Positions 37,440 to 58,927 of a DNA stretch of 64,000 nt are shown piece after piece. The number at the start of each line of letters is the position of its first letter. The first letter of the stretch is position 1. The stretch is from a virus (taxonomy: Duplodnaviria > Caudoviricetes). The translations under genes and the position numbers were made by a program. The notes beneath the pieces are model-generated. The model worked only from the letters and a program-made list of their open reading frames with translations. It made no database searches and had not been told where the DNA came from. The stretch covers positions 96,001 to 160,000 of the IMG/VR virus record IMGVR_UViG_3300031134_000001. One strand, given 5' to 3'.

Positions 37440-38015
37440 ATGGCGACTGACCTCACTAAAGCGCCGTTGGAAATCCTGGTTGATCTGATCAACGACACCA
37501 ATGGCTGCGCTCTAACCACATCGGACATCACGTTCGGCCCCCCTTCTGCTTTGTTAAACAGCGCTCGCAATACGAGCCTGCGTATCACAGCAACCCCTAG
37601 CAGCGTCTACAGCGGCTCACGTGACGTTACGTACGACCGCATTGACATGGCGACCATTCCGGGCCTGCGCAGCACTGGGTTCGATCTGGGCACTGCCAGG
37701 ACTATCCGCGATTTGATCCCCATGATCAACAACGCGTATTTGCTTAACCTGCAGCCGGAAGATTACTACGACGACATCTTACCGAACTTCGGCCAAGGTG
37801 CTGACGTCAGTTACCACTTTACGCTGCGCGCCAAACCAGCGTCCTACATTTACCGTAATTGGTTGGTGTTGTCGGGCAATGGCAATCGCTTGGTGATTGG
37901 TGATGTGATTACCCAGAATCTGTTGTCGGGTTTCATCTTGCCAGAAATGAGCCAAGAACTGGAAGGCACTGAAATCTTAAATGGTTTCTTCTTCCCAGCG
38001 ACCGACCCCGTGTAG
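37440..38015 (+). CDS. Tail-associated paralog-family protein (phiKZ gp131-like N-terminal domain)
   Basis: LVDLINDTN...RNTSLRITA...YSGSRDVTYDRIDM pattern, shared with 38121-38609 and 44730-45257. Confidence 0.65.
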   Translation: MATDLTKAPLEILVDLINDTNGCALTTSDITFGPPSALLNSARNTSLRITATPSSVYSGSRDVTYDRIDMATIPGLRSTGFDLGTARTIRDLIPMINNAYLLNLQPEDYYDDILPNFGQGADVSYHFTLRAKPASYIYRNWLVLSGNGNRLVIGDVITQNLLSGFILPEMSQELEGTEILNGFFFPATDPV

Positions 38016-38034: not shown

Positions 38035-38096
38035 GTAGCATCCCTATCTCTACTTACCTACACGGGCGAGTGGGGGTAGGGATGCTACTTTTTTTT
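38035..38096 (+). terminator. Intrinsic terminator
   Basis: GTAGCATCCCTA / TAGGGATGCTAC stem plus T8. Confidence 0.8.
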
Positions 38097-38120
38097 GTTG
38101 CATTTTACAAGGAAGTCATT

Positions 38121-38609
38121 ATGTCCAGCACCGATCGTATTTTGCAGATGGTGACGGAGAAGAACCGTCCAACCTATCCGCTCACCACAGAGCGCGTTGC
38201 GCTAAGCGGTTTGTTGGTTGAAAATGCCAACGATCACAACACACGCTTGACCATGCGAGCTCGGGGCAACAACACGGGCTACACAGGACAAGTCGACCTT
38301 TTCTACACCCGCGTGAGCTTGACCGCACTGGGTGCGTTGTACATCGCTCGGGAAAAACCGTTCTCGTTGGCTGAACTACTGGCCGCTATTAACGTTAACA
38401 AGAACGCTCAGATTACCACGGAAGACATCACCAACGTTGATGTACCGCCAACCGAGACGGGCGTGCCACTGGCCTTTACGTTAAGTGCCCAAGACGAATC
38501 GATGGTCTGGTTAGGTAACACCCGTGTGAATATCTTAACCGGCATCCCCGCAGCTGCCCCCGATCTGTTTACCTTCTTGAACAAAGAAGCTTCGCATTTG
38601 TTCGGATAA
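38121..38609 (+). CDS. Tail-associated paralog-family protein
   Basis: ATG at 38121 after AAGGA. HNTRLTMRA..GYTGQVDLFYTRVSL matches the family pattern. Confidence 0.65.
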   Translation: MSSTDRILQMVTEKNRPTYPLTTERVALSGLLVENANDHNTRLTMRARGNNTGYTGQVDLFYTRVSLTALGALYIAREKPFSLAELLAAINVNKNAQITTEDITNVDVPPTETGVPLAFTLSAQDESMVWLGNTRVNILTGIPAAAPDLFTFLNKEASHLFG

Positions 38610-38634: not shown

Positions 38635-41600
38635 ATGAACATGTCGGAATTTGACGACCTGATTGACAAATTTAAGACCAGCATGGTAATGTCTGGCACC
38701 TACGTCAATGGCGACGATGGTACGGATATTCAAACAGCTAGCGGTCCCGTACCGTCCCTGGCTAAGCAAGCCAAGCTCGGTCGACTGCGTATCGACGCGG
38801 TGTTGCCGGACTTAACGCGTGTGCTGGTGTTGGAAGGCGATCGTGACTACAACGCCAACCAACAAGGCTGGGGTCGTTTGCACTTGGGGCTGGATCGTGT
38901 CGACAATACACCCGATGCATCCAAGCCGCTCTCGACTGCCATGCAACGCGCAATCGAAGAACTCATCACGCAGATCAAGCTTAAAGAAAACAAGTCCGAT
39001 CGCGATGTGCCCAACGGTTACCCGAGCTACACGGCTAGCCGCTTAAAGCTCATCGGCACTGCCAACCAACCCGTGGGCTACATCAGCCATCAGAACACGG
39101 TGGAACGTTCGTGGACGCTGCCTGACAAGAGTGGTGAGCTCGCACTCAAGAGCGACTTGACCGGCACCAATAGCGGCACCAACACTGGTGACGAAACGCA
39201 GACCACGATCTTAACCAAGCTTGGCGCAACGAAAGTAACCGGCACCAACACTGGTGACTTCGATTCCGTCACCACGTACACGACTGTCTCGGGCCTGCCG
39301 AACGTGGGTGTGGACAAACGCATCTACATCGTCAAGTCCAACGCCACGATGTACTTCTGGAATGGTGCGGCCTACCAGTTACTCACGACCTTGATCACGG
39401 ATAGTGACTCGGTCCCAGAAGGCAACAACAAATACTTCACCCAACTGCGCGCCATCCAATCGGTGCTGAGCACCTACGCGGTGACGCCCGCCGGTGTGGT
39501 AGTTGCTAGCGACACGGTGGTTGGTGCGATTGCGAAACTGCAAGCCCAGATCAACACCGCGATCAATGACTACAACGCCAAGCTCGCAGAACGTGAAACC
39601 CTGGTCAACAAAGCCACAACCTTCGCTACCGTCAATCACACGCTCTACCCAACGGTGCAAGCGGTCAAGACGTACGCTGACGCGCTCGTAGCGGGCGTTA
39701 TCAAGGACTGTGGCAACTGGGACGCGTCGAGCAACGCATTCCCCGCCACGGGCGGCTCAGGCACCTCTGGTGCGATTCGTAAAGGTAACTTCTGGTACGT
39801 GAATGTGGCAGGCACCTTGGGTGGTGTGGCTGTCAATATCGGCGACTCGTTCCGCGCTCTGGTTGATAGTCCAGAACAAGTGGCTGCAAACTGGGCGGTC
39901 CTTGAATCGAATCTCGGGTATGTTCCCTACAACGCCACAAACCCGGCCAAGTACATCTCCGCCATTACTGGTGCGATGGTCACGGGGGCTCTGGGTTATA
40001 CGCCTTTAAAGACGGCGGACAAAGACGCGAGCAGCGGCGTTGTGGGTATGACTGGTTTTGCGGTAAACCTGAAGAACGCCGACGGTACGTTTGTATCCAA
40101 GCTGATCAACAACGCCACGGGTGTGCGTCAATGGACGATGCCTGATAAAGACGGCGTGGTGGCTTTGATGTCGGATCTGACTGGCTTGACCAGTGGTACC
40201 AACACAGGCGATGAAACCAAAGACACGTTGCTGTCCAAACTCGGCGCGACCCAAGTTACCGGTAGCAACACGGGTGACCAGACCATCACCTTAACGGGTG
40301 ACGTCACAGGCGGCGGTACGGCCGGTGTAGCCACGACCATCGCAGCAGGCGCCGTAACCTTGAACAAGTTCCAAACGGTCCCTACCGGCGTTCTGGTGGG
40401 TCGTAGCGATGGTGGGACGGGTACTGCGCAACTGCTTAACGCTGCCAGTGTCAAAGCACTGCTGGGTTTGAATGCAGTGGACAACACGAGCGACGCCAAC
40501 AAAGTCGTTAGCGCAGCGCAGCAAACGGCACTGAACGCCAAAGAGAACACGGTTAACAAAGCGGTTGACTTTAGCGTGACGGACAACGTGCGTTACCCAA
40601 CGACGCTGGCTGTGAAGACCTTCGTGGATGCGCGTATCGCTGGTGTGGTGTCGGACTGTGGCAACTGGGATGCCTCGACTGGCGCTTACCCAACTGTGGG
40701 TGGTACTGGCACAAACGGGGCGATCAAGAAAGGCAACCTGTTCTACATCTCGACGGCCGGTGCCATCGGCGGCGTGATGTTAACCAACGGCGATAGCATT
40801 CGCGCTCTGGTGGACAACCCAGGTCAAAGCAATCTGAACTGGGGCGCTCTGGAGACGAACATTGGTTACGTGCCATACAACGCTACCAACCCAGCAGGCT
40901 ACATCTCCGGCATCAATGGCGCCATGGTCGCTAGCGCTCTGGGTTACGCGCCCGAGAATCCGAGTGCTCGCAACGCAGCCAACGGTTACCCAACCTTGCA
41001 AAACTACGGTGTGGTGTTAAAGAACGGCGATGGCGGCGCAGCTTCGGCTATCCGCAGCTCAGCAACAGTCGCCCGTAGCTGGACCATGCCAGACAAAGAC
41101 GGCATCGTTGCACTCCTGTCCGACTTGAGCGGTTTGAACTCCGGTACGAATACGGGTGACGAAACCCAAGCCACCATTCTGAACAAGTTGGGCGCGACCA
41201 GGGTTACAGGTAGCAATACCGGCGACGAAACTGGCACAACCATTCGTGCTAAGTTAGGCGGTGGTGCGTTGTCTGGTTCGAACACCGGTGATGAAACCGC
41301 CGAGACCATTCTGGCGAAACTGCCGATGGTGCCTGTGAACAAAGCCGGTGACTCGTTAACCGGTGCGCTGAACTTCGCGCCTGGAGCGCAGATCGTTAGT
41401 GCGGCCTCGCTGAACCTATCTGCTGTTAATAGCAACGTCGTGGAAGTAACTGGCGTTACGCAAATCACCAGTATCACGTTGGCTGACGGCATGATGCGCT
41501 TTGTGCGCTTTGCAGGTCGTTTGACTTTGGTGCATGGCGCAAATCTGGTTCTGCCTACCAATGCCAGTGTCATTACCAATCCAGGCGACTGGGCTGTGCT

Positions 41601-42015
41601 AGTCGGTCGCCCTAACGGTGTGGTCCAGTGCGTAAACTACATGCGCGCTTCGGGCATGCCGGTGTTTGGTAACTCGCGCGAGAAGGTGCGCCAGATTCTG
41701 GCCAACACGACTTCGACTGTGATTGACTTGAACACTGGTGACGAAGCAACTGTCTTCAAAGTGACGATCGCATCGAACACCACCATCACGTTCATCAACG
41801 CACCATCTTCGCCAACAGGCGAAATCTTCAACTTCTCCTTGATCACTATCAACGACGCTACCGATGGCCGGGCCATGGCTTTTGGCAATACCATCGAATG
41901 GGCCTTCAAGCAACTGCCCGCACGCACCACAGGCGCTAACGCCAAAGACGTGTGGTCGTTCTACGTTGATGGTTCCACGTATGGCGGCGCCCTGTCGTCG
42001 CAAGATCAAGGCTAA
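38635..42015 (+). CDS. Long tail fibre with internal ~316-aa module repeats
   Basis: 1126 aa, G/T/N-rich. VDNTxDAxKxxSxAxQxA fibre motif twice; three WTxPDKxG..SDL.G..SGTNTGDET modules; start could be 38641. Confidence 0.8.
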   Translation: MNMSEFDDLIDKFKTSMVMSGTYVNGDDGTDIQTASGPVPSLAKQAKLGRLRIDAVLPDLTRVLVLEGDRDYNANQQGWGRLHLGLDRVDNTPDASKPLSTAMQRAIEELITQIKLKENKSDRDVPNGYPSYTASRLKLIGTANQPVGYISHQNTVERSWTLPDKSGELALKSDLTGTNSGTNTGDETQTTILTKLGATKVTGTNTGDFDSVTTYTTVSGLPNVGVDKRIYIVKSNATMYFWNGAAYQLLTTLITDSDSVPEGNNKYFTQLRAIQSVLSTYAVTPAGVVVASDTVVGAIAKLQAQINTAINDYNAKLAERETLVNKATTFATVNHTLYPTVQAVKTYADALVAGVIKDCGNWDASSNAFPATGGSGTSGAIRKGNFWYVNVAGTLGGVAVNIGDSFRALVDSPEQVAANWAVLESNLGYVPYNATNPAKYISAITGAMVTGALGYTPLKTADKDASSGVVGMTGFAVNLKNADGTFVSKLINNATGVRQWTMPDKDGVVALMSDLTGLTSGTNTGDETKDTLLSKLGATQVTGSNTGDQTITLTGDVTGGGTAGVATTIAAGAVTLNKFQTVPTGVLVGRSDGGTGTAQLLNAASVKALLGLNAVDNTSDANKVVSAAQQTALNAKENTVNKAVDFSVTDNVRYPTTLAVKTFVDARIAGVVSDCGNWDASTGAYPTVGGTGTNGAIKKGNLFYISTAGAIGGVMLTNGDSIRALVDNPGQSNLNWGALETNIGYVPYNATNPAGYISGINGAMVASALGYAPENPSARNAANGYPTLQNYGVVLKNGDGGAASAIRSSATVARSWTMPDKDGIVALLSDLSGLNSGTNTGDETQATILNKLGATRVTGSNTGDETGTTIRAKLGGGALSGSNTGDETAETILAKLPMVPVNKAGDSLTGALNFAPGAQIVSAASLNLSAVNSNVVEVTGVTQITSITLADGMMRFVRFAGRLTLVHGANLVLPTNASVITNPGDWAVLVGRPNGVVQCVNYMRASGMPVFGNSREKVRQILANTTSTVIDLNTGDEATVFKVTIASNTTITFINAPSSPTGEIFNFSLITINDATDGRAMAFGNTIEWAFKQLPARTTGANAKDVWSFYVDGSTYGGALSSQDQG
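39112..41163 (+). repeat. Coding tandem module repeats within the tail fibre
   Basis: WTxPDK modules start at 39112, 40132 and 41080. DCGNWDAS modules start at 39706 and 40654 (948-nt period). Copies are diverged largely at synonymous sites. Confidence 0.8.
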
Positions 42016-42065: not shown

Positions 42066-43181
42066 ATGAAGTTATCTGGACGACTACGTCAGCAAATGAC
42101 GAACCGCGCACGTGGTACGATCACGTTGAACGCGCCGAGTGTTGTGCAACTGCCTTACGGACGGGGCTTGATTAAAGTCGGCGGTCGGGGTGGTTCTGGT
42201 AACGCACCGACTGGCGGTAGTGTGGCGAACTACAACAGTCCGACCCCAGGCACAGTTGCTAACTACAATCCTCCGACTGGCGGCACGTACGCTGGAACCA
42301 ATCCCACGGTAGCGGGTAATATCGCTGGTTACAATCCCACCAACGGCGGTAACGTAGCAGGTTACAACCCTACGACGCCGGGCAATGTGTCTGGCTACAA
42401 TGCAGGTTCGCCCGGCAACGTTGCGAACTACAATGCTCCGTCAGGTGGTAATTTGGCGGGATACAATGCACCGACGCCAGGCACGGCATATACCAATCCA
42501 GACATCACAACGCCAGGCAACACCAATCAACCAACGTATTCGCCGGGATATACCAATCCACCGAGCGACCAAGAAACACATGTGCCAACTCGCAACGGAT
42601 GTCCTGCCGGCTGGACATATGGCGGGTTAAACGATGGTTATAATTCCGGCACACAGTACCATGTCTGTTTCTTATCGCAGCCTGGCAACACCAATCCCGG
42701 CACGTACACACCAGGTTATACCAACCCGTCGAACATCACGTGGGGTAATCCTGCGACAAATGCCCCAGTGCCTGGAAACGCGTATTACAATCCGGTCTCG
42801 CCGGGCAATGCGAACTACAATTCACCAGTGCCTGGAAATGCCAATTACTACAGCCCAACATCGGGTACGGCAAACTACAACCCCACGTCGGGTGGCAATG
42901 CGATTTACAATCCTTCCACGGGCGGTAACGCACGCTACAATCCCACGGTAGCAGGCACAGCCAACTACAACCCTCCAGCTCCCGGTAACGCGAACTACAA
43001 TTCGACCGTTCCCGGTAATGCGGGAACGCCTGCGGTTATTGGTGGTGTCGCGTTCCCAGGCGGTGCTGCGGGTTCTGTGGCGTCGTTCGTCTCGCCCGCT
43101 CCATCGAACATTTCGTACAACAAGAGTGGTGTGCCTATTAACGTGCCTCCGGGTGGTTATGTGGTCATTACCACGATTTAA
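42066..43181 (+). CDS. G/N/P/Y tandem-repeat fibre-like protein
   Basis: 8 x 11-aa repeats, a central Cys-pair region, then 8 x 10-aa repeats. Confidence 0.75.
   Translation: MKLSGRLRQQMTNRARGTITLNAPSVVQLPYGRGLIKVGGRGGSGNAPTGGSVANYNSPTPGTVANYNPPTGGTYAGTNPTVAGNIAGYNPTNGGNVAGYNPTTPGNVSGYNAGSPGNVANYNAPSGGNLAGYNAPTPGTAYTNPDITTPGNTNQPTYSPGYTNPPSDQETHVPTRNGCPAGWTYGGLNDGYNSGTQYHVCFLSQPGNTNPGTYTPGYTNPSNITWGNPATNAPVPGNAYYNPVSPGNANYNSPVPGNANYYSPTSGTANYNPTSGGNAIYNPSTGGNARYNPTVAGTANYNPPAPGNANYNSTVPGNAGTPAVIGGVAFPGGAAGSVASFVSPAPSNISYNKSGVPINVPPGGYVVITTI
42216..42479 (+). repeat. Eight 33-nt coding repeats (GxVAxYNPxxx)
   Basis: Counted from the translation, aa 51-138. Confidence 0.85.
42774..43013 (+). 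repeat. Eight 30-nt coding repeats (GNAxYNPxxx)
   Basis: Counted from the translation, aa 237-316. Confidence 0.85.
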
Positions 43182-43193
43182 AAAGGCTTTACC

Positions 43194-44126
43194 ATGCAAC
43201 TTGCAAAATGGTATCTCGTTTGCGATCGAGTGAATAAACGCGCGATCGATCTGATCGTGCTGCCAGACATCTGGGGACAAGCCACGGGTCTGCGTAACCA
43301 AAGCGATGAAGACTTGGAGTTCTTCTGGCAATGGTCCCCGCACACTGAAACCAACTTCTTAACCGTGGACCGCGCACTGGAACTCGATTACGACATCGAA
43401 TCGATTACCAACGTCCTTGACATGAATAAGCCAGCCGTCTTGGAATGGGTACGCTCCATGCGTGATCCAGTTCTGGCAGCCACCGACAGCATCATCGTGT
43501 CAGATCGCTGGAATAGCTTGGATGTGGTTGCGCAAAACGACGCTACGGTGTTTCGTAATGCACTGCGTGACTTAACTACGCAGCAAGATCTATTCCGCCT
43601 GAAGTGGCCTAGCATTCCGCCTGTGCTCAATTTCCTGCGCAAGATGGATGTCAGTGCGATCACACAGCCAAGTGAAGAATTCTTGGCGATGTTTAGTGAG
43701 CCGTATCCAGCGCTGTCGTTAGCGGCTCGCCGGAGCAACATGTGGTTGCGCATCAAAGCAGAGCGCGACCGCCGCATTAATGGTGGTATCAAGATCATGG
43801 TTGACGGTAAGGCGTACTGGTTCTGGACTGACGATCCGTCCTGCAAACAGTACGCGCTGCTTGACGGTCACACCACACGTAACAACATGGCGTTAACCCA
43901 GGTCATCAACAACTGGAAAACCATGTCTGGAGAATTCGTCCCAATGACCGTGGCTATTTTGCGCGAAGTCATCGGGGCGGGTATCAGCAACGAAGGCGCT
44001 ATCTTCGACGTTGCTGAAGACCACAATAAAGCGATGGCGGCATTGGAAGAACCTGAAAGTTACGACTTCAGTCAAGGCTGGCCAGCATCGTTCGAAGAGT
44101 ATCAAGCTGCGATGGGGTTAATGTAG
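43194..44126 (+). CDS. Tail fibre assembly chaperone, DUF4376-like C-terminal domain
   Basis: IKAERDRRINGG...WFWTDDPS...WKTMSGEFVPMT...YDFSQGWP is typical of this phage fibre-chaperone family; follows fibre genes. Confidence 0.7.
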   Translation: MQLAKWYLVCDRVNKRAIDLIVLPDIWGQATGLRNQSDEDLEFFWQWSPHTETNFLTVDRALELDYDIESITNVLDMNKPAVLEWVRSMRDPVLAATDSIIVSDRWNSLDVVAQNDATVFRNALRDLTTQQDLFRLKWPSIPPVLNFLRKMDVSAITQPSEEFLAMFSEPYPALSLAARRSNMWLRIKAERDRRINGGIKIMVDGKAYWFWTDDPSCKQYALLDGHTTRNNMALTQVINNWKTMSGEFVPMTVAILREVIGAGISNEGAIFDVAEDHNKAMAALEEPESYDFSQGWPASFEEYQAAMGLM

Positions 44127-44160: not shown

Positions 44161-44622
44161 GTGCAAGTTTTCTTCTACAAAGGTACCCGGCCCGGTTTGG
44201 CAGGTATCTATAGCTGGGGTGTGCGTAAAGTGACGCAGTCGCCTTACTCGCATTGTGAAATTCTGTTTAGTGACGGCATGTCTGCATCGGCGTCGTTTAC
44301 CGATCATGGTGTGCGTTTCAAAAAGATCGACTATGAACCAGAACACTGGGACGTGATCGATCTGCCATCGGAACTGTTCGAAGCACGAGCACGTCAATGG
44401 TTCATCGAACACAACGGCGATCCGTACGATCTCCTGGGCAACGTGTACTTCCTGTTTAGCTTGATCGGCGGTGATAAAGACAAGTGGTTCTGCTCGGAAG
44501 CACTGGGCGCAGCCCTGGGTCTGCCAGAGCCATGGCGGTTCGATCCAGGCACGTTGTACGAAGCTGTGAAGTGGTTGTCCGAATCACTCAAAGCCCAACA
44601 AGCTTTGCAAGTGGCTGCATAG
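44161..44622 (+). CDS. Permuted papain-like (NlpC/P60, YiiX/YebB-like) amidase/peptidase
   Basis: His-before-Cys order: YSHCEILF ... YDLLG ... WFCSE. GTG start after GAAAGGA. Confidence 0.75.
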   Translation: MQVFFYKGTRPGLAGIYSWGVRKVTQSPYSHCEILFSDGMSASASFTDHGVRFKKIDYEPEHWDVIDLPSELFEARARQWFIEHNGDPYDLLGNVYFLFSLIGGDKDKWFCSEALGAALGLPEPWRFDPGTLYEAVKWLSESLKAQQALQVAA

Positions 44623-44666
44623 ACGGCATAGACGTGGAGGGTCACCCCCTCCACGTTTTATGCTTT
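44623..44666 (+). terminator. Hairpin flanked by ACGGCATA / TATGCTTT; TATG may also serve as a late promoter
   Basis: ACGTGGAGGG / CCCTCCACGT stem. Confidence 0.7.
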
Positions 44667-44729
44667 CAAATCGAAAAAGTCGTTGTTATCGTATGTCTAT
44701 CAGTAATTTTTAATTTTACGAGGGTCATC

Positions 44730-45257
44730 ATGGATGATGAAATCAACGTACTACGCGACCCGGAGGAAGAGCTTATTGAGTTGATCAATAAGGACAACAT
44801 CACTCCCAAAGGCAGTATCAACTTAACGCTTGACGACGTTGAGTTATCTGACCCGGTCTCTGTTTCGTATGGCGGACGGAACACGCGCGTGACGGTTAAG
44901 GCCAAGCCGTCGTCAAAGTACACCGGCACCAAGGACGTGTTTTACAACCGGCTCGCACTTAGCGACTTGGGTTACATTGGCATCATTTCAGACGAACCGA
45001 TCTCTGCCCAGATGATCCTTGAAATGATTACCAGCAAAAAAGGCATCTCGATGCTGGCCGACGATTTCGAGCCAATCATCATTCCTTACCTGGAAGCTGG
45101 TGAAGCGCTCAAGATCAATCTGATTGCCAAGCCCACGGCGATCAAGTGGTATGGCCAAACCCAAGCAGACTACGCATTCGGCATTCCAGCCGGTCTGGGA
45201 TTACTGCACGAACTGATCCACAATACGTTGCCTACCCAAGGCTACTTAACACAGTAG
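44730..45257 (+). CDS. Tail-associated paralog-family protein (third copy)
   Basis: ATG at 44730 after GAGG. LIELINKDN...RNTRVTVKA...YTGTKDVFYNRLAL. Confidence 0.65.
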   Translation: MDDEINVLRDPEEELIELINKDNITPKGSINLTLDDVELSDPVSVSYGGRNTRVTVKAKPSSKYTGTKDVFYNRLALSDLGYIGIISDEPISAQMILEMITSKKGISMLADDFEPIIIPYLEAGEALKINLIAKPTAIKWYGQTQADYAFGIPAGLGLLHELIHNTLPTQGYLTQ

Positions 45258-57823: not shown

Positions 57824-58927
57824 ATGCTCGACCGTACCGTTAGTAACCGCATTGCGATGCTGCGCCCACTTTTGATCATCGCCATGGTGTTCTCTCACAT
57901 GCAGAGTACATCGATCAACATGTCGGACATCGATCCTGGCTTTTTCAATCACGTCGGCGCATTCTTCATCCACGGCATTGCGCGTGGTACGGTGCCTACC
58001 ATGTCAATGATTGCTGGCTTCCTACTCTTTAGCATGAGCCTTGATTTACAGTTTACCAAGATGGTCAAGAAAAAGATGACTACACTGGTCATTCCTTTCA
58101 TCGCTTTCAATCTCGCCTACGTCGCCTATGTGGTCGTATGCGACATTGTGTTCAAAGAAAACCGTCTAGGCGACTTGGCTACTTTGGCAGCAAGCATCGG
58201 TTGGTTTGATGTCTTGTTTGGTTTTGGTCAATACCCAGTTAACGCACCGTTGTACTTTGTGCGTGACCTGATTGTCTTTAGCCTGATGGCCCCGCTTTTG
58301 GGCGGCATCATGCGTACTCTCCCAGTCTTGGGTCTGGCTGGCTTGATCGTGATCTTCGGTTTCAATCACGACGGCAATCTGGTGTTTCGTAGTTCCAGCC
58401 TCATCCTGTTCTATATCGGCGGGATGGCAGCAGTCTACAAATGGGACCTCCTGGCAATGGACAAGTATGCTAAACCATGCGCTGTGATTTTCCTGCTCTT
58501 GTGCCTGGCGTTGATGGCGTTTAAGATGGCCGACAACACGATCCTCGTGATGGCTGCGCCCTTCTTGATCTGGCCAGCAGCATCGCTCTTGAGCAAAACC
58601 CGTATCGAAGCCTGGGGTCTGAAACATGCTAAGTACAGCTTCTTCATCTTTGCGGCGCACATGCCGTTGATGGAACTGACCTGGCTGGCTGTGACGGGTC
58701 CACTCAAGTTTGTGCCATACATCGTTTACTGGGCTATCACCCCGTTTGCAGTGTCGGCATTCTTGATGGTCGTCTACAACGTGAGCATGCGTGTTGCGCC
58801 TACGGCGTTTAACATCATGGTCGGCGCACGTCCTGCGAAACCGAAGTATGCAGATCGTCGCAAAACCGCGCGTCCTGTCAACGCTCCTGTCTACTCGGCA
58901 GAAGAGCGCATGACACTCGCGCATTAA
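57824..58927 (+). CDS. Membrane acyltransferase, Acyl_transf_3 family, ExoH-like
   Basis: Many hydrophobic helices. SNRIAMLRPLLIIAMVFSH, VPTMSMIAGFLLF, LVIPFIAFNL, PVNAPLYFVRDL and SFFIFAAH follow the ExoH/OafA pattern. Confidence 0.8.
   Translation: MLDRTVSNRIAMLRPLLIIAMVFSHMQSTSINMSDIDPGFFNHVGAFFIHGIARGTVPTMSMIAGFLLFSMSLDLQFTKMVKKKMTTLVIPFIAFNLAYVAYVVVCDIVFKENRLGDLATLAASIGWFDVLFGFGQYPVNAPLYFVRDLIVFSLMAPLLGGIMRTLPVLGLAGLIVIFGFNHDGNLVFRSSSLILFYIGGMAAVYKWDLLAMDKYAKPCAVIFLLLCLALMAFKMADNTILVMAAPFLIWPAASLLSKTRIEAWGLKHAKYSFFIFAAHMPLMELTWLAVTGPLKFVPYIVYWAITPFAVSAFLMVVYNVSMRVAPTAFNIMVGARPAKPKYADRRKTARPVNAPVYSAEERMTLAH

What the first reader, a model, noticed from the sequence alone, without database searches (positions are those of the whole stretch)
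42066..43181. Mirror-symmetric repeat protein: a fibre that may fold back on itself with a Cys-pair tip
Seen: exactly 8 x 11-aa repeats (aa 51-138) and 8 x 10-aa repeats (aa 237-316) flank a core in which PGNTN..TY.PGYTNP brackets a loop with the only two cysteines (C179, C201). The repeats correspond in reverse order: N3 NPTVA equals C6 NPTVA, N2 NPPTG matches C7 NPPAP, N4 NPTNG matches C5 NPSTG, N1 SPTP matches C8 STVP. Inference: the two arms pair antiparallel into a hairpin stalk, the N- and C-termini form one base domain, and the loop is a disulfide-closed, possibly variable, receptor-binding tip. Length change would need matched gain or loss in both arms.
Basis: partly seen in the sequence, partly recalled or inferred. 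Interest (0 to 1): 0.7.

Follow-up and report, generated by a model that had tools for sequence, protein, structure and literature searches.

The report
Out-and-back repeat stalk on phage fibre
This jumbo-phage gene encodes an unnamed tail-fibre protein whose chain appears to run out along a stalk of 11-residue repeats and back along 10-residue repeats, with arm lengths that change together across relatives and a variable tip that probably recognises the host.

Summary
The ORF at 42066-43181 (371 aa) is real. Its two repeat arrays (about 8-9 x 11 aa, then about 8-9 x 10 aa), its only two cysteines (C179, C201) and the direct 16-aa motif flanking the Cys loop are all present and far above chance.

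Across the family, repeat tails resemble each other in parallel order, not mirror order.

- In 69 two-arm homologs the arm counts correlate (r 0.87). In 34 sister pairs the changes correlate (r 0.84; 16 same sign, 1 opposite).
- An arm of 11-mers always faces an arm of 10-mers (37 normal, 4 swapped, 0 same-type), giving 21.00 +/- 0.12 residues per rung.
- AlphaFold2 places the N- and C-termini in one small beta-sandwich. Its best, weak matches are the TNF-like domains of cyanophage Pam3 fibre gp24 and of ALK.

The gene follows a fibre whose C-terminal domain is conserved in 8 loci, and it precedes a fibre-assembly chaperone. A two-hairpin paralog in the same genome shares the tip and sits next to a prolyl-hydroxylase-like oxygenase.

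Most likely it is a distal fibre adhesin with a length-tunable fold-back stalk. The stalk fold, oligomeric state, disulfide and hydroxylation are untested. This scan has met the family before on other DNA (e1-5336370, e1-5335858).

The parts
42066..43181 (+). Whole ORF, 371 aa (P0001): member of an unnamed metagenomic phage family
   Evidence: It has 158 homologs and 131 representatives of 50%-identity clusters. No Pfam, PHROG or NCBIfam hit.
42066..42215 (+). N-terminal half of the split base domain (aa 1-50)
   Evidence: AF2 pLDDT 75-97. Conserved family motif (consensus). 66% identical to the ortholog P0002.
42216..42512 (+). Outgoing arm: 8 canonical plus 1 degenerate 11-aa unit (aa 51-149)
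   Evidence: AF2 gives one 4-residue strand plus one bridge per unit, confident for the four units nearest the base.
42513..42560 (+). Linker 1, PGNTNQPTYSPGYTNP (aa 150-165), short pentapeptide-like units
   Evidence: AF2 confidence is low.
42561..42680 (+). Tip core (aa 166-205) with C179 (42600-42602) and C201 (42666-42668)
   Evidence: AF2 pLDDT about 80 with three strands. 69% identical to the second core of paralog P0211 but only 33% to ortholog P0002.
42681..42773 (+). Linker 2, PGNTNPGTYTPGYTNP (aa 206-221), plus the transition to the return arm (aa 222-236)
42774..43043 (+). Return arm: 8 canonical plus 1 degenerate 10-aa unit (aa 237-326)
   Evidence: AF2 is confident for the five units nearest the base.
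43044..43178 (+). C-terminal half of the split base domain (aa 327-371)
   Evidence: AF2 pLDDT 91-98. Structural matches span residues 14 to 371 as one beta-sandwich.
41656..42006 (+). Conserved C-terminal domain (about aa 1008-1124) of the upstream 1126-aa fibre (ORF 38635-42015): candidate docking site
   Evidence: 34-55% identity to the C-termini of the genes upstream of family members in 7 other loci, whatever their N-terminal parts.
43194..44126 (+). Downstream tail-fibre assembly chaperone-like gene (DUF4376 plus Phage_tail_APC)
   Evidence: Orthologs follow P0002 and P0007.

Best explanation
P0001 is most likely the distal, host-recognising subunit of a tail fibre.

Its first ~50 and last ~45 residues fold together into one small beta-sandwich base. 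I infer that this base docks on the conserved C-terminal domain of the upstream 1126-aa fibre, and that the downstream Tfa-like chaperone helps assembly.

From the base the chain runs out through 11-residue units, crosses a variable tip that carries the Cys pair, and returns through 10-residue units. Each level of the stalk therefore pairs one 11-mer with one 10-mer (21 residues per rung), and the number of rungs sets the stalk length.

Shown here:
- the repeat anatomy;
- co-variation of arm counts;
- the 11/10 complementarity;
- the predicted single base domain;
- the conserved gene order;
- the mosaic pattern, in which the tip is shared with the in-genome paralog and the base with orthologs.

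Inferred: docking on the fibre, receptor binding by the tip, and the physical geometry of the rungs.
For: Arm counts:
- N- and C-arm unit counts correlate in 69 two-arm homologs (Pearson 0.87). The difference is 0 or -1 in 54 of 69, over a range of 2 to 11 units.
- In 34 disjoint nearest-relative pairs, the change in N-arm count correlates with the change in C-arm count (r 0.84). 16 pairs change in the same direction, 1 in opposite directions, and in 8 only one arm changes.

Arm types:
- Arm types are complementary: 37 proteins have mostly 11-mers in the N-arm and mostly 10-mers in the C-arm, 4 have the reverse, and none has two arms of the same type. One further protein has an evenly mixed C-arm.
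- There are 21.00 +/- 0.12 residues per rung.
- The antiparallel register gives better 11/10 complementarity in 3 base-domain clusters, equal in 7 and worse in 0.

Structure prediction:
- AF2 on P0001 gives pLDDT above 90 for residues 1-90 and 280-371.
- AF2 on P0002 (mean pLDDT 79) is confident for the base, for 5+5 units and for the core.
- VIA-align matches treat both termini as one sandwich. The best are Pam3 fibre gp24 (7ypx_A; Z 4.9 with rmsd 3.1 over 78 residues, and Z 5.3 with rmsd 3.4 over 76) and ALK (7nx3_A; Z 5.0, rmsd 3.7 over 73).
- Pam3 gp24 is described as a TNF-like domain bearing glycine-rich out-and-back loops with a hypervariable distal tip, held by a Tfa-type chaperone (PMC9608196).

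Gene context:
- Every upstream gene in 8 loci ends in the same ~100-aa domain.
- A Tfa-like chaperone follows directly in the window, in L007 and in L014, and lies further downstream in the oxygenase cassettes.

Mosaicism and selection:
- The base is 66-67% identical to ortholog P0002, but the core is only 33% identical. Against the same-genome paralog P0211 the base is 31-34% identical, the core 69% and the linkers 74-76%.
- Near-identical copies in straw metagenomes carry 14 SNPs, 12 of them synonymous, and no indels.
Against: - No coordinates were available, so I could not see which strands pair. The AF2 stalk is confident only near the base in P0001. That could partly reflect alignment depth.
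- Base-domain matches are weak (Z about 5) and shared with many generic beta-sandwiches.
- No virion proteomics, expression or binding data exist for this family.
- Long arrays of 11-mers alone occur in a 1732-aa protein (P0162, up to 28 units), so 11-mers do not strictly need a 10-mer partner.
- Family-wide similarity of repeat tails runs in parallel order, not mirror order. I explain this by entry and exit cap units, but I have not proved it.
Confidence: 0.6

Rival explanations
1. Same out-and-back topology, but the stalk is an intertwined homotrimer. The six arms of three chains form one needle, as in the T4 gp37 tip, so arm pairing is partly or wholly between chains.
For: The best base-domain matches are TNF/C1q-like domains, and Pam3 gp24 is trimeric. 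A Tfa-type chaperone, which assists trimeric fibre tips, follows the gene. In T4 gp37 the D10 domain is made of residues 811-881 plus 1010-1026, with the needle inserted between them (PMC6957217). Arrays of 11-mers alone in P0162 suggest these units can assemble between chains.
Against: Nothing here speaks against it. P0001 has no HxH iron-site motifs, so it is not a gp37-type needle. S16 gp38, a distal adhesin, is a monomer on a trimeric fibre (PMC6851490).
Confidence: 0.3
2. The repeat arms are substrates of the phage's prolyl-hydroxylase-like 2OG-Fe(II) oxygenase. Hydroxylation of Pro (x-P-G or Y-N-P) or Asn is needed to stabilise the stalk. This adds to the best explanation and does not replace it.
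For: A PF13640 oxygenase lies within three genes downstream of a family member in 7 of 11 loci examined. In the window's own genome it follows the paralog P0211 directly (G000:C1:183-851, 75 bits). Its best solved relative is the prolyl hydroxylase-type protein 4iw3_A (E 9.5e-9), and the H-x-D...H residues align. P0001 has 16 P-G and 15 Y-N-[PAS] sites.
Against: P0001's own locus, its ortholog locus L007 and L014 have no adjacent oxygenase, so action on P0001 would have to be in trans. No chemistry has been shown for any member. The substrate could be another cassette protein.
Confidence: 0.3
3. It is an assembly factor or non-virion accessory of the upstream fibre, like T4 gp38, and not a structural adhesin.
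For: It sits between a fibre gene and a chaperone gene. T4 gp38 occupies a similar place and is a chaperone, not a virion part (PMC9608196 introduction).
Against: A length-variable stalk and a hypervariable tip are hard to explain for a chaperone. The tip is shared between two paralogs of one phage while the bases differ. A dedicated Tfa-like chaperone is already present.
Confidence: 0.08
4. There is no fold-back. The two arrays are independent solenoids or rods stacked in series, with the core as a hinge.
For: The two arrays have different periods. The ESM Atlas's own low-confidence model (pLDDT 0.43) resembles a DUF4097 beta-solenoid (TM 0.57).
Against: Serial rods give no reason for matched counts or for 11/10 complementarity. 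AF2 puts both termini in one domain at pLDDT above 90.
Confidence: 0.05

Closest known systems
Cyanophage Pam3 tail fibre gp24 with chaperone gp25 (PDB 7YPX; PMC9608196)
   Same: A TNF-like beta-sandwich from which extended out-and-back segments run along the fibre axis to a hypervariable distal tip. The fibre gene is followed by a Tfa-type chaperone. It is the best structural match to both models (Z 4.9 and 5.3).
   Different: Pam3 has six short loops made of glycine-rich motifs (GGGGxGG; 39% Gly). P0001 has one long insertion of 11-aa and 10-aa units (16% Gly, no Gly run above 2) with predicted short beta-strands. There is no sequence relationship. The match is weak.
Gp38 adhesin of S16/T2-type phages (PDB 6F45; PMC6851490)
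   Same: A separate small distal adhesin encoded just after the long-fibre gene. It has conserved repeat motifs alternating with hypervariable distal loops that set host range.
   Different: Gp38 has a helical attachment domain, a five-ringed beta-helix and a polyglycine-II sandwich. It has no split base domain, no 10/11-aa repeats and no variable rung number. It was not among the top 50 structural matches.
T4 gp37 receptor-binding tip, domains D10/D11 (Bartual et al. 2010, as described in PMC6957217)
   Same: The closest topological precedent. The collar domain D10 is built from two separated segments (811-881 and 1010-1026). The needle and tip are inserted between them, so the chain goes out and back.
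   Different: The gp37 needle is a trimer held by seven His-coordinated iron ions. P0001 has two His and no HxH motif. There is no repeat-number variation of this kind and no sequence similarity.
ALK/LTK glycine-rich domain (PDB 7NX3, 7LS0)
   Same: A TNF-like sandwich with a large repeat insertion. It matches at Z 5.0 (rmsd 3.7, 73 residues, 18% identity) for P0002 and Z 4.2 for P0001.
   Different: It is a eukaryotic receptor. From my own knowledge, its insert is a lattice of polyglycine-II helices. Pfam ALK_LTK_GRD does not hit P0001.
Viral and bacterial protein prolyl 4-hydroxylases (PPHD 4IW3; PBCV-1 P4H 5C5T)
   Same: The oxygenase that travels with this family is of this type and keeps the metal-binding residues.
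   Different: No substrate is known here, and P0001's own locus lacks the enzyme.

Membership tests
Unnamed metagenomic 'split base + 11-mer arm + core + 10-mer arm' phage family (this report) | Conserved N-terminal (R-x-E-x-T ... F-N-A-P-G ... Y-G-K/R ... G-R-G) and C-terminal (L-G-V-x-F-P-G-G ... V-P-x-G-G-Y-V-x-I) segments | tested here: met
   Full-length hits with E down to 3e-63 and 98-100% coverage. Alignment consensus.
Unnamed metagenomic 'split base + 11-mer arm + core + 10-mer arm' phage family (this report) | Two repeat arms of matched unit number and opposite unit length (11 against 10) | tested here: met
   P0001 has 8 and 8 canonical units, or 10 and 9 by the profile caller. Its arms are all 11-mers against all 10-mers.
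Unnamed metagenomic 'split base + 11-mer arm + core + 10-mer arm' phage family (this report) | Encoded directly after a gene that ends in the conserved ~100-aa C-terminal domain | tested here: met
   Window fibre aa 1008-1124 matches 7 other upstream genes.
Gp38 / Pam3 gp24-type glycine-rich (polyglycine-II) receptor-binding domains | Glycine-rich motifs (runs such as GGGGxGG; 39-50% Gly) that form PGII helices | tested here: not met
   The longest Gly run is 2, and Gly makes up 60 of 371 residues. AF2 assigns short beta-strands to the units.
Gp38 / Pam3 gp24-type glycine-rich (polyglycine-II) receptor-binding domains | TNF-like or beta-sandwich body that carries the distal loops | tested here: inconclusive
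   7ypx_A matches at Z 4.9 and 5.3 with 76-78 residues aligned. Many unrelated sandwiches score within 1 Z unit.
Gp38 / Pam3 gp24-type glycine-rich (polyglycine-II) receptor-binding domains | Sequence-level relationship | tested here: not met
   No Pfam or PHROG hit. A family profile against all PDB sequences gives no hit at E up to 10.
T4 gp37-type needle | HxH motifs that coordinate iron along a trimeric needle | tested here: not met
   Two His (172, 199) and no HxH.
T4 gp37-type needle | Split collar domain with an out-and-back insertion | tested here: met
   This is an analogy of topology only. AF2 gives a single base domain built from both termini. The gp37 D10 residues are cited from PMC6957217.
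Collagen-like phage fibres | (G-X-Y)n with period 3 | tested here: not met
   No run of 4 or more G-X-Y triplets. Identity at lag 3 is 0.06-0.09.
Substrates of protein prolyl 4-hydroxylases | Hydroxyproline in repeat peptides | not testable with these tools
   Only gene neighbourhood is available: 7 of 11 loci.

The most novel reading that the evidence does not exclude
The stalk is a protein architecture not represented among solved structures. The two antiparallel arms of one chain interlock so that every rung is one 11-residue unit plus one 10-residue unit (21 residues). Rungs are added or lost in matched pairs, which gives phages a modular ruler for how far the receptor-binding tip projects. 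The family's dedicated prolyl-hydroxylase-like enzyme stabilises the structure after translation.
Probability: 0.2. Interest if true: 0.85.

Novelty: new variant of a known kind. Interest (0 to 1): 0.62.

Why it matters
Receptor-binding proteins decide phage host range, and most in uncultured jumbo phages cannot be read from sequence.

This family (about 130 clusters at 50% identity, with no Pfam or PHROG model) has a simple, checkable grammar:
- a conserved split base;
- a stalk whose length is set by paired 11+10-residue rungs;
- an exchangeable tip.

The grammar makes the domain boundaries predictable for annotation and for structural work. The matched-arm rule is a clean natural example of co-evolving repeat numbers within one protein. 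The recurrent link to a prolyl-hydroxylase-type enzyme offers a concrete candidate substrate for phage 2OG oxygenases.

Tried and rejected
- Homotrimer prediction of the closest homolog P0002 (3 copies, alignment A2) returned no verdict (score 0.00). It is evidence neither way.
- Foldseek found nothing at E <= 0.001 against PDB, BFVD and AFDB clusters.
- The ESM Atlas shape search on my model gave TM <= 0.33. The only stalk-spanning row was a Phage_base_V cluster, too weak to use.
- The Atlas's own low-confidence model of P0001 resembles DUF4097 (TM 0.57). I did not rely on it because its pLDDT is 0.43.
- Pfam, PHROGs and NCBIfam gave no hit for P0001. A family profile against PDB sequences gave none.
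- megablast and tblastn against 50,697 cultured-phage records gave no match for the locus, the protein or its C-terminal base.
- The fibre's C-terminal domain gave two weak hits (Roseobacter phage CRP-603 and Curtobacterium phage Kithara). The gene after the CRP-603 fibre is not a family member.
- The residue-level mirror test was not significant in P0001 and is reversed family-wide.
- No fusion of a family member to the fibre C-terminal domain was found among 14 long hits. I did not run the 'longer' homolog search, so fused forms are not excluded.
- No RNA holder was listed among public runs.
- Population data showed no repeat-number polymorphism, but only contigs of one 99%-identical strain were available.
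- Collagen, pentapeptide-repeat and gp37-type readings were rejected on period and motif grounds.

Full report
**What is there.** The window is bases 96001-160000 of a 271,026-bp virus record with direct terminal repeats, a jumbo phage. ORF 42066-43181 (+) encodes 371 aa (P0001). It is read in register as follows:
- a non-repetitive N-terminus (aa 1-50);
- eight canonical 11-aa units plus degenerate units at the ends (51-149);
- the motif PGNTNQPTYSPGYTNP (150-165);
- a 40-aa core with the only two cysteines, C179 and C201;
- a near-copy of the motif, PGNTNPGTYTPGYTNP (206-221; 13 of 16 identical, in direct orientation);
- eight canonical 10-aa units plus degenerate ones (237-326);
- a non-repetitive C-terminus (327-371).

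The periodicity is far above chance: identity is 0.62 at lag 11 and 0.57 at lag 10, against 0.13 in shuffles (z 13 and 11). At DNA level the units match only 61-65%, so the repeats are old and kept at protein level. The descriptive part of the finding is therefore confirmed.

**The mirror claim.** The listed tail matches (N3=C6 and so on) exist. Shuffling unit order reaches the same score in 10% of trials for that register and in 31% when ten registers are allowed. Across 42 homologs with at least 4 units per arm, tails are less alike than chance in mirror order (mean z -0.52) and more alike in parallel order (mean z +0.58, p 6e-4). Part of this comes from direct duplicates of the last two units of each arm, for example GNFAGxNPAVP-GNPNYN before both the core and the C-terminal domain in P0015 and P0086. 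I read these as exit caps that precede a globular domain. So the sequence is not mirror-symmetric. Both arms use the same motif in the same chain direction.

**The hairpin test.** The family has 158 hits in 5.8 billion proteins and 131 representatives of 50%-identity clusters. All are metagenomic and unnamed. I built 11-mer and 10-mer profiles and a dynamic-programming unit caller.
- In 69 homologs with both termini and exactly two arms, unit counts range from 2 to 11 and correlate between arms (Pearson 0.87). The difference is 0 or -1 in 54 of 69.
- To remove shared ancestry, I paired each protein with its nearest relative by base-domain identity, giving 34 disjoint pairs. The changes correlate at r 0.84. 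16 pairs change in the same direction, 1 in opposite directions, and in 8 only one arm changes. One example is P0031 against P0109: their bases are 92% identical, with 11/11 against 7/7 units.
- Arm type is complementary. Of 42 proteins with at least 4 units per arm, 37 have mostly 11-mers in the N-arm and mostly 10-mers in the C-arm, 4 have the reverse, one has an evenly mixed C-arm, and none has two arms of one type.
- There are 21.00 +/- 0.12 residues per rung.
- Where arms are mixed, the base-anchored antiparallel register gives better 11/10 complementarity in 3 clusters, equal in 7 and worse in 0. That is weak but one-directional.
- Multi-core members follow the same bookkeeping. The same-genome paralog P0211 reads 7 units, core, 14 units, core, 7 units, which is two hairpins in tandem.

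Unequal crossing-over in one arm cannot by itself keep the counts matched. Selection for two arms of equal length and paired unit type is the simplest explanation.

**Structure prediction.**
- AF2 on P0001 with 70 homologs gives pLDDT above 90 for residues 1-90 and 280-371, about 80 for 170-205, and below 50 for the mid-arms and linkers.
- AF2 on the closest homolog P0002 (303 aa, 5+5 units, same synteny) gives mean pLDDT 79, with the base, all ten units and the core confident.
- In both models each unit has one 3-4-residue strand plus one single-residue bridge.
- I had no coordinates, so I cannot say which strands pair or whether the arms intertwine.
- VIA-align against 48,161 PDB chains returns only small beta-sandwiches that span both termini, so the termini form one domain. 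The best matches are Pam3 fibre gp24 (7ypx_A; Z 4.9 with rmsd 3.1 over 78 residues, and Z 5.3 with rmsd 3.4 over 76) and ALK (7nx3_A, Z 5.0). TNF and C1q family members score Z 3.6-4.2. These scores are weak.
- The Pam3 paper describes gp24 as a TNF-like domain whose strands extend into glycine-rich out-and-back loops with a hypervariable distal tip, embraced by a Tfa-type chaperone (PMC9608196).
- No library gave an analogue of the stalk.

**Context.**
- In the window the gene follows a 1126-aa repeat fibre after a 50-nt gap. It precedes, after 12 nt, a DUF4376 / Phage_tail_APC chaperone-like gene.
- The closest homolog has the same order in a 269-kb contig.
- I examined 11 loci in all. In the 8 loci with DNA and an upstream gene, that gene's product ends in the same ~100-aa domain (34-55% identity), although the proteins range from 386 to 1126 aa. 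One of them carries Pfam Phage_phiTE_241_C.
- A Tfa-type chaperone follows directly in 3 loci.
- A PF13640 2OG-Fe(II) oxygenase lies within three genes downstream in 7 loci, usually followed by a DUF6065-like gene.
- The window's own genome has such a cassette at its left end: a 414-aa gene, then P0211 (746 aa), then a 222-aa oxygenase. A weak DUF6065 match lies across the terminal repeat. The oxygenase's best solved relative is 4iw3_A (E 9.5e-9), and the H-x-D...H residues align.

**Mosaicism.** Against ortholog P0002 the base halves are 66-67% identical and the core 33%. Against paralog P0211 the base halves are 31-34% identical, the core 69% and the flanking linkers 74-76%. The tip therefore tracks the phage and the base tracks the partner fibre. 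This is the pattern expected if the tip meets the host and the base meets the fibre.

Across the family the cores are 17-221 aa long. 24 of 69 have exactly two Cys, 15 of those as C-P with spacing mostly 18-27. 38 of 69 have none. Cys is almost absent elsewhere. The Cys-closed loop is thus one tip class among several.

**Population data.** The same gene occurs at about 99% identity in straw metagenomes of several 2025 studies. There are 14 SNPs, 12 of them synonymous, two replacements (D146N, S194A) and no indels. 9 of the 14 lie in codons 139-236. This shows purifying selection on an intact gene.

**Reading.** It is most likely a distal fibre subunit with a split beta-sandwich base, a fold-back stalk of 21-residue rungs whose number is evolutionarily tunable, and an exchangeable tip.

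By topology the closest precedents are:
- the T4 gp37 tip, where collar D10 is made of residues 811-881 plus 1010-1026 with the needle inserted between them (PMC6957217);
- the Pam3 gp24 and S16 gp38 class (PMC9608196; PMC6851490).

It is not a member of either. It has no glycine-rich motifs, no HxH motifs and no sequence relationship. I class it as a new variant of a known kind.

**Open points.**
- The rung geometry.
- Monomer or trimer; the trimer job gave no verdict.
- The disulfide.
- Docking on the fibre.
- Hydroxylation.

Earlier notes of this scan describe the paralog cassette (e1-5335858) and a double-hairpin member in another genome (e1-5336370). My tests agree with both.

Noticed in passing
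G000:C1:183-4377 (outside the window, left end of the same genome; locus L010): A paralog cassette on the minus strand. A 414-aa gene ends in the shared fibre C-terminal domain. It is followed by the 746-aa two-hairpin paralog P0211 and then by a 222-aa PF13640 prolyl-hydroxylase-like oxygenase. A weak DUF6065 match lies at C1:270306-270821, across the terminal repeat.
   Followed up: partly
window 37440-38015, 38070-38609, 44484-45257: Three small DUF7941 paralogs flank the fibre genes. The same family flanks the homologous loci L007 and L014.
   Followed up: no
L014:5311-6837: Two family members (P0048, 225 aa, 3+3 units; P0007, 278 aa, 5+5 units) lie in tandem between an 871-aa fibre and its DUF4376 chaperone. 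They may be alternative or stacked tips.
   Followed up: no
protein P0162 (1732 aa, metagenomic): It has arrays of 11, 4 and 28 consecutive 11-aa units with no 10-mer partner. P0175 has eight 10-mers alone. The unit types therefore also occur outside the hairpin layout.
   Followed up: no
window 42482-42683: In straw-metagenome variants, 9 of the 14 SNPs cluster in the linker and core region (binomial p 0.003), and nearly all are synonymous. This may reflect exchange with the paralog's second module.
   Followed up: partly
window 44161-44622: A 153-aa ORF after the chaperone matches phrog_1128 (E 4e-41), which is annotated enoyl-CoA hydratase/carnitine racemase-like. That is an odd neighbour for fibre genes.
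   Followed up: no
locus of P0019 (ENA contig, no DNA held): The cassette with swapped arm types (10-mers first) also carries a PF11397 GlcNAc-transferase-like gene after the oxygenase and DUF6065 genes.
   Followed up: no
window 57824-58927: An Acyl_transf_3 membrane acyltransferase lies directly after the large tailspike and fibre genes.
   Followed up: no
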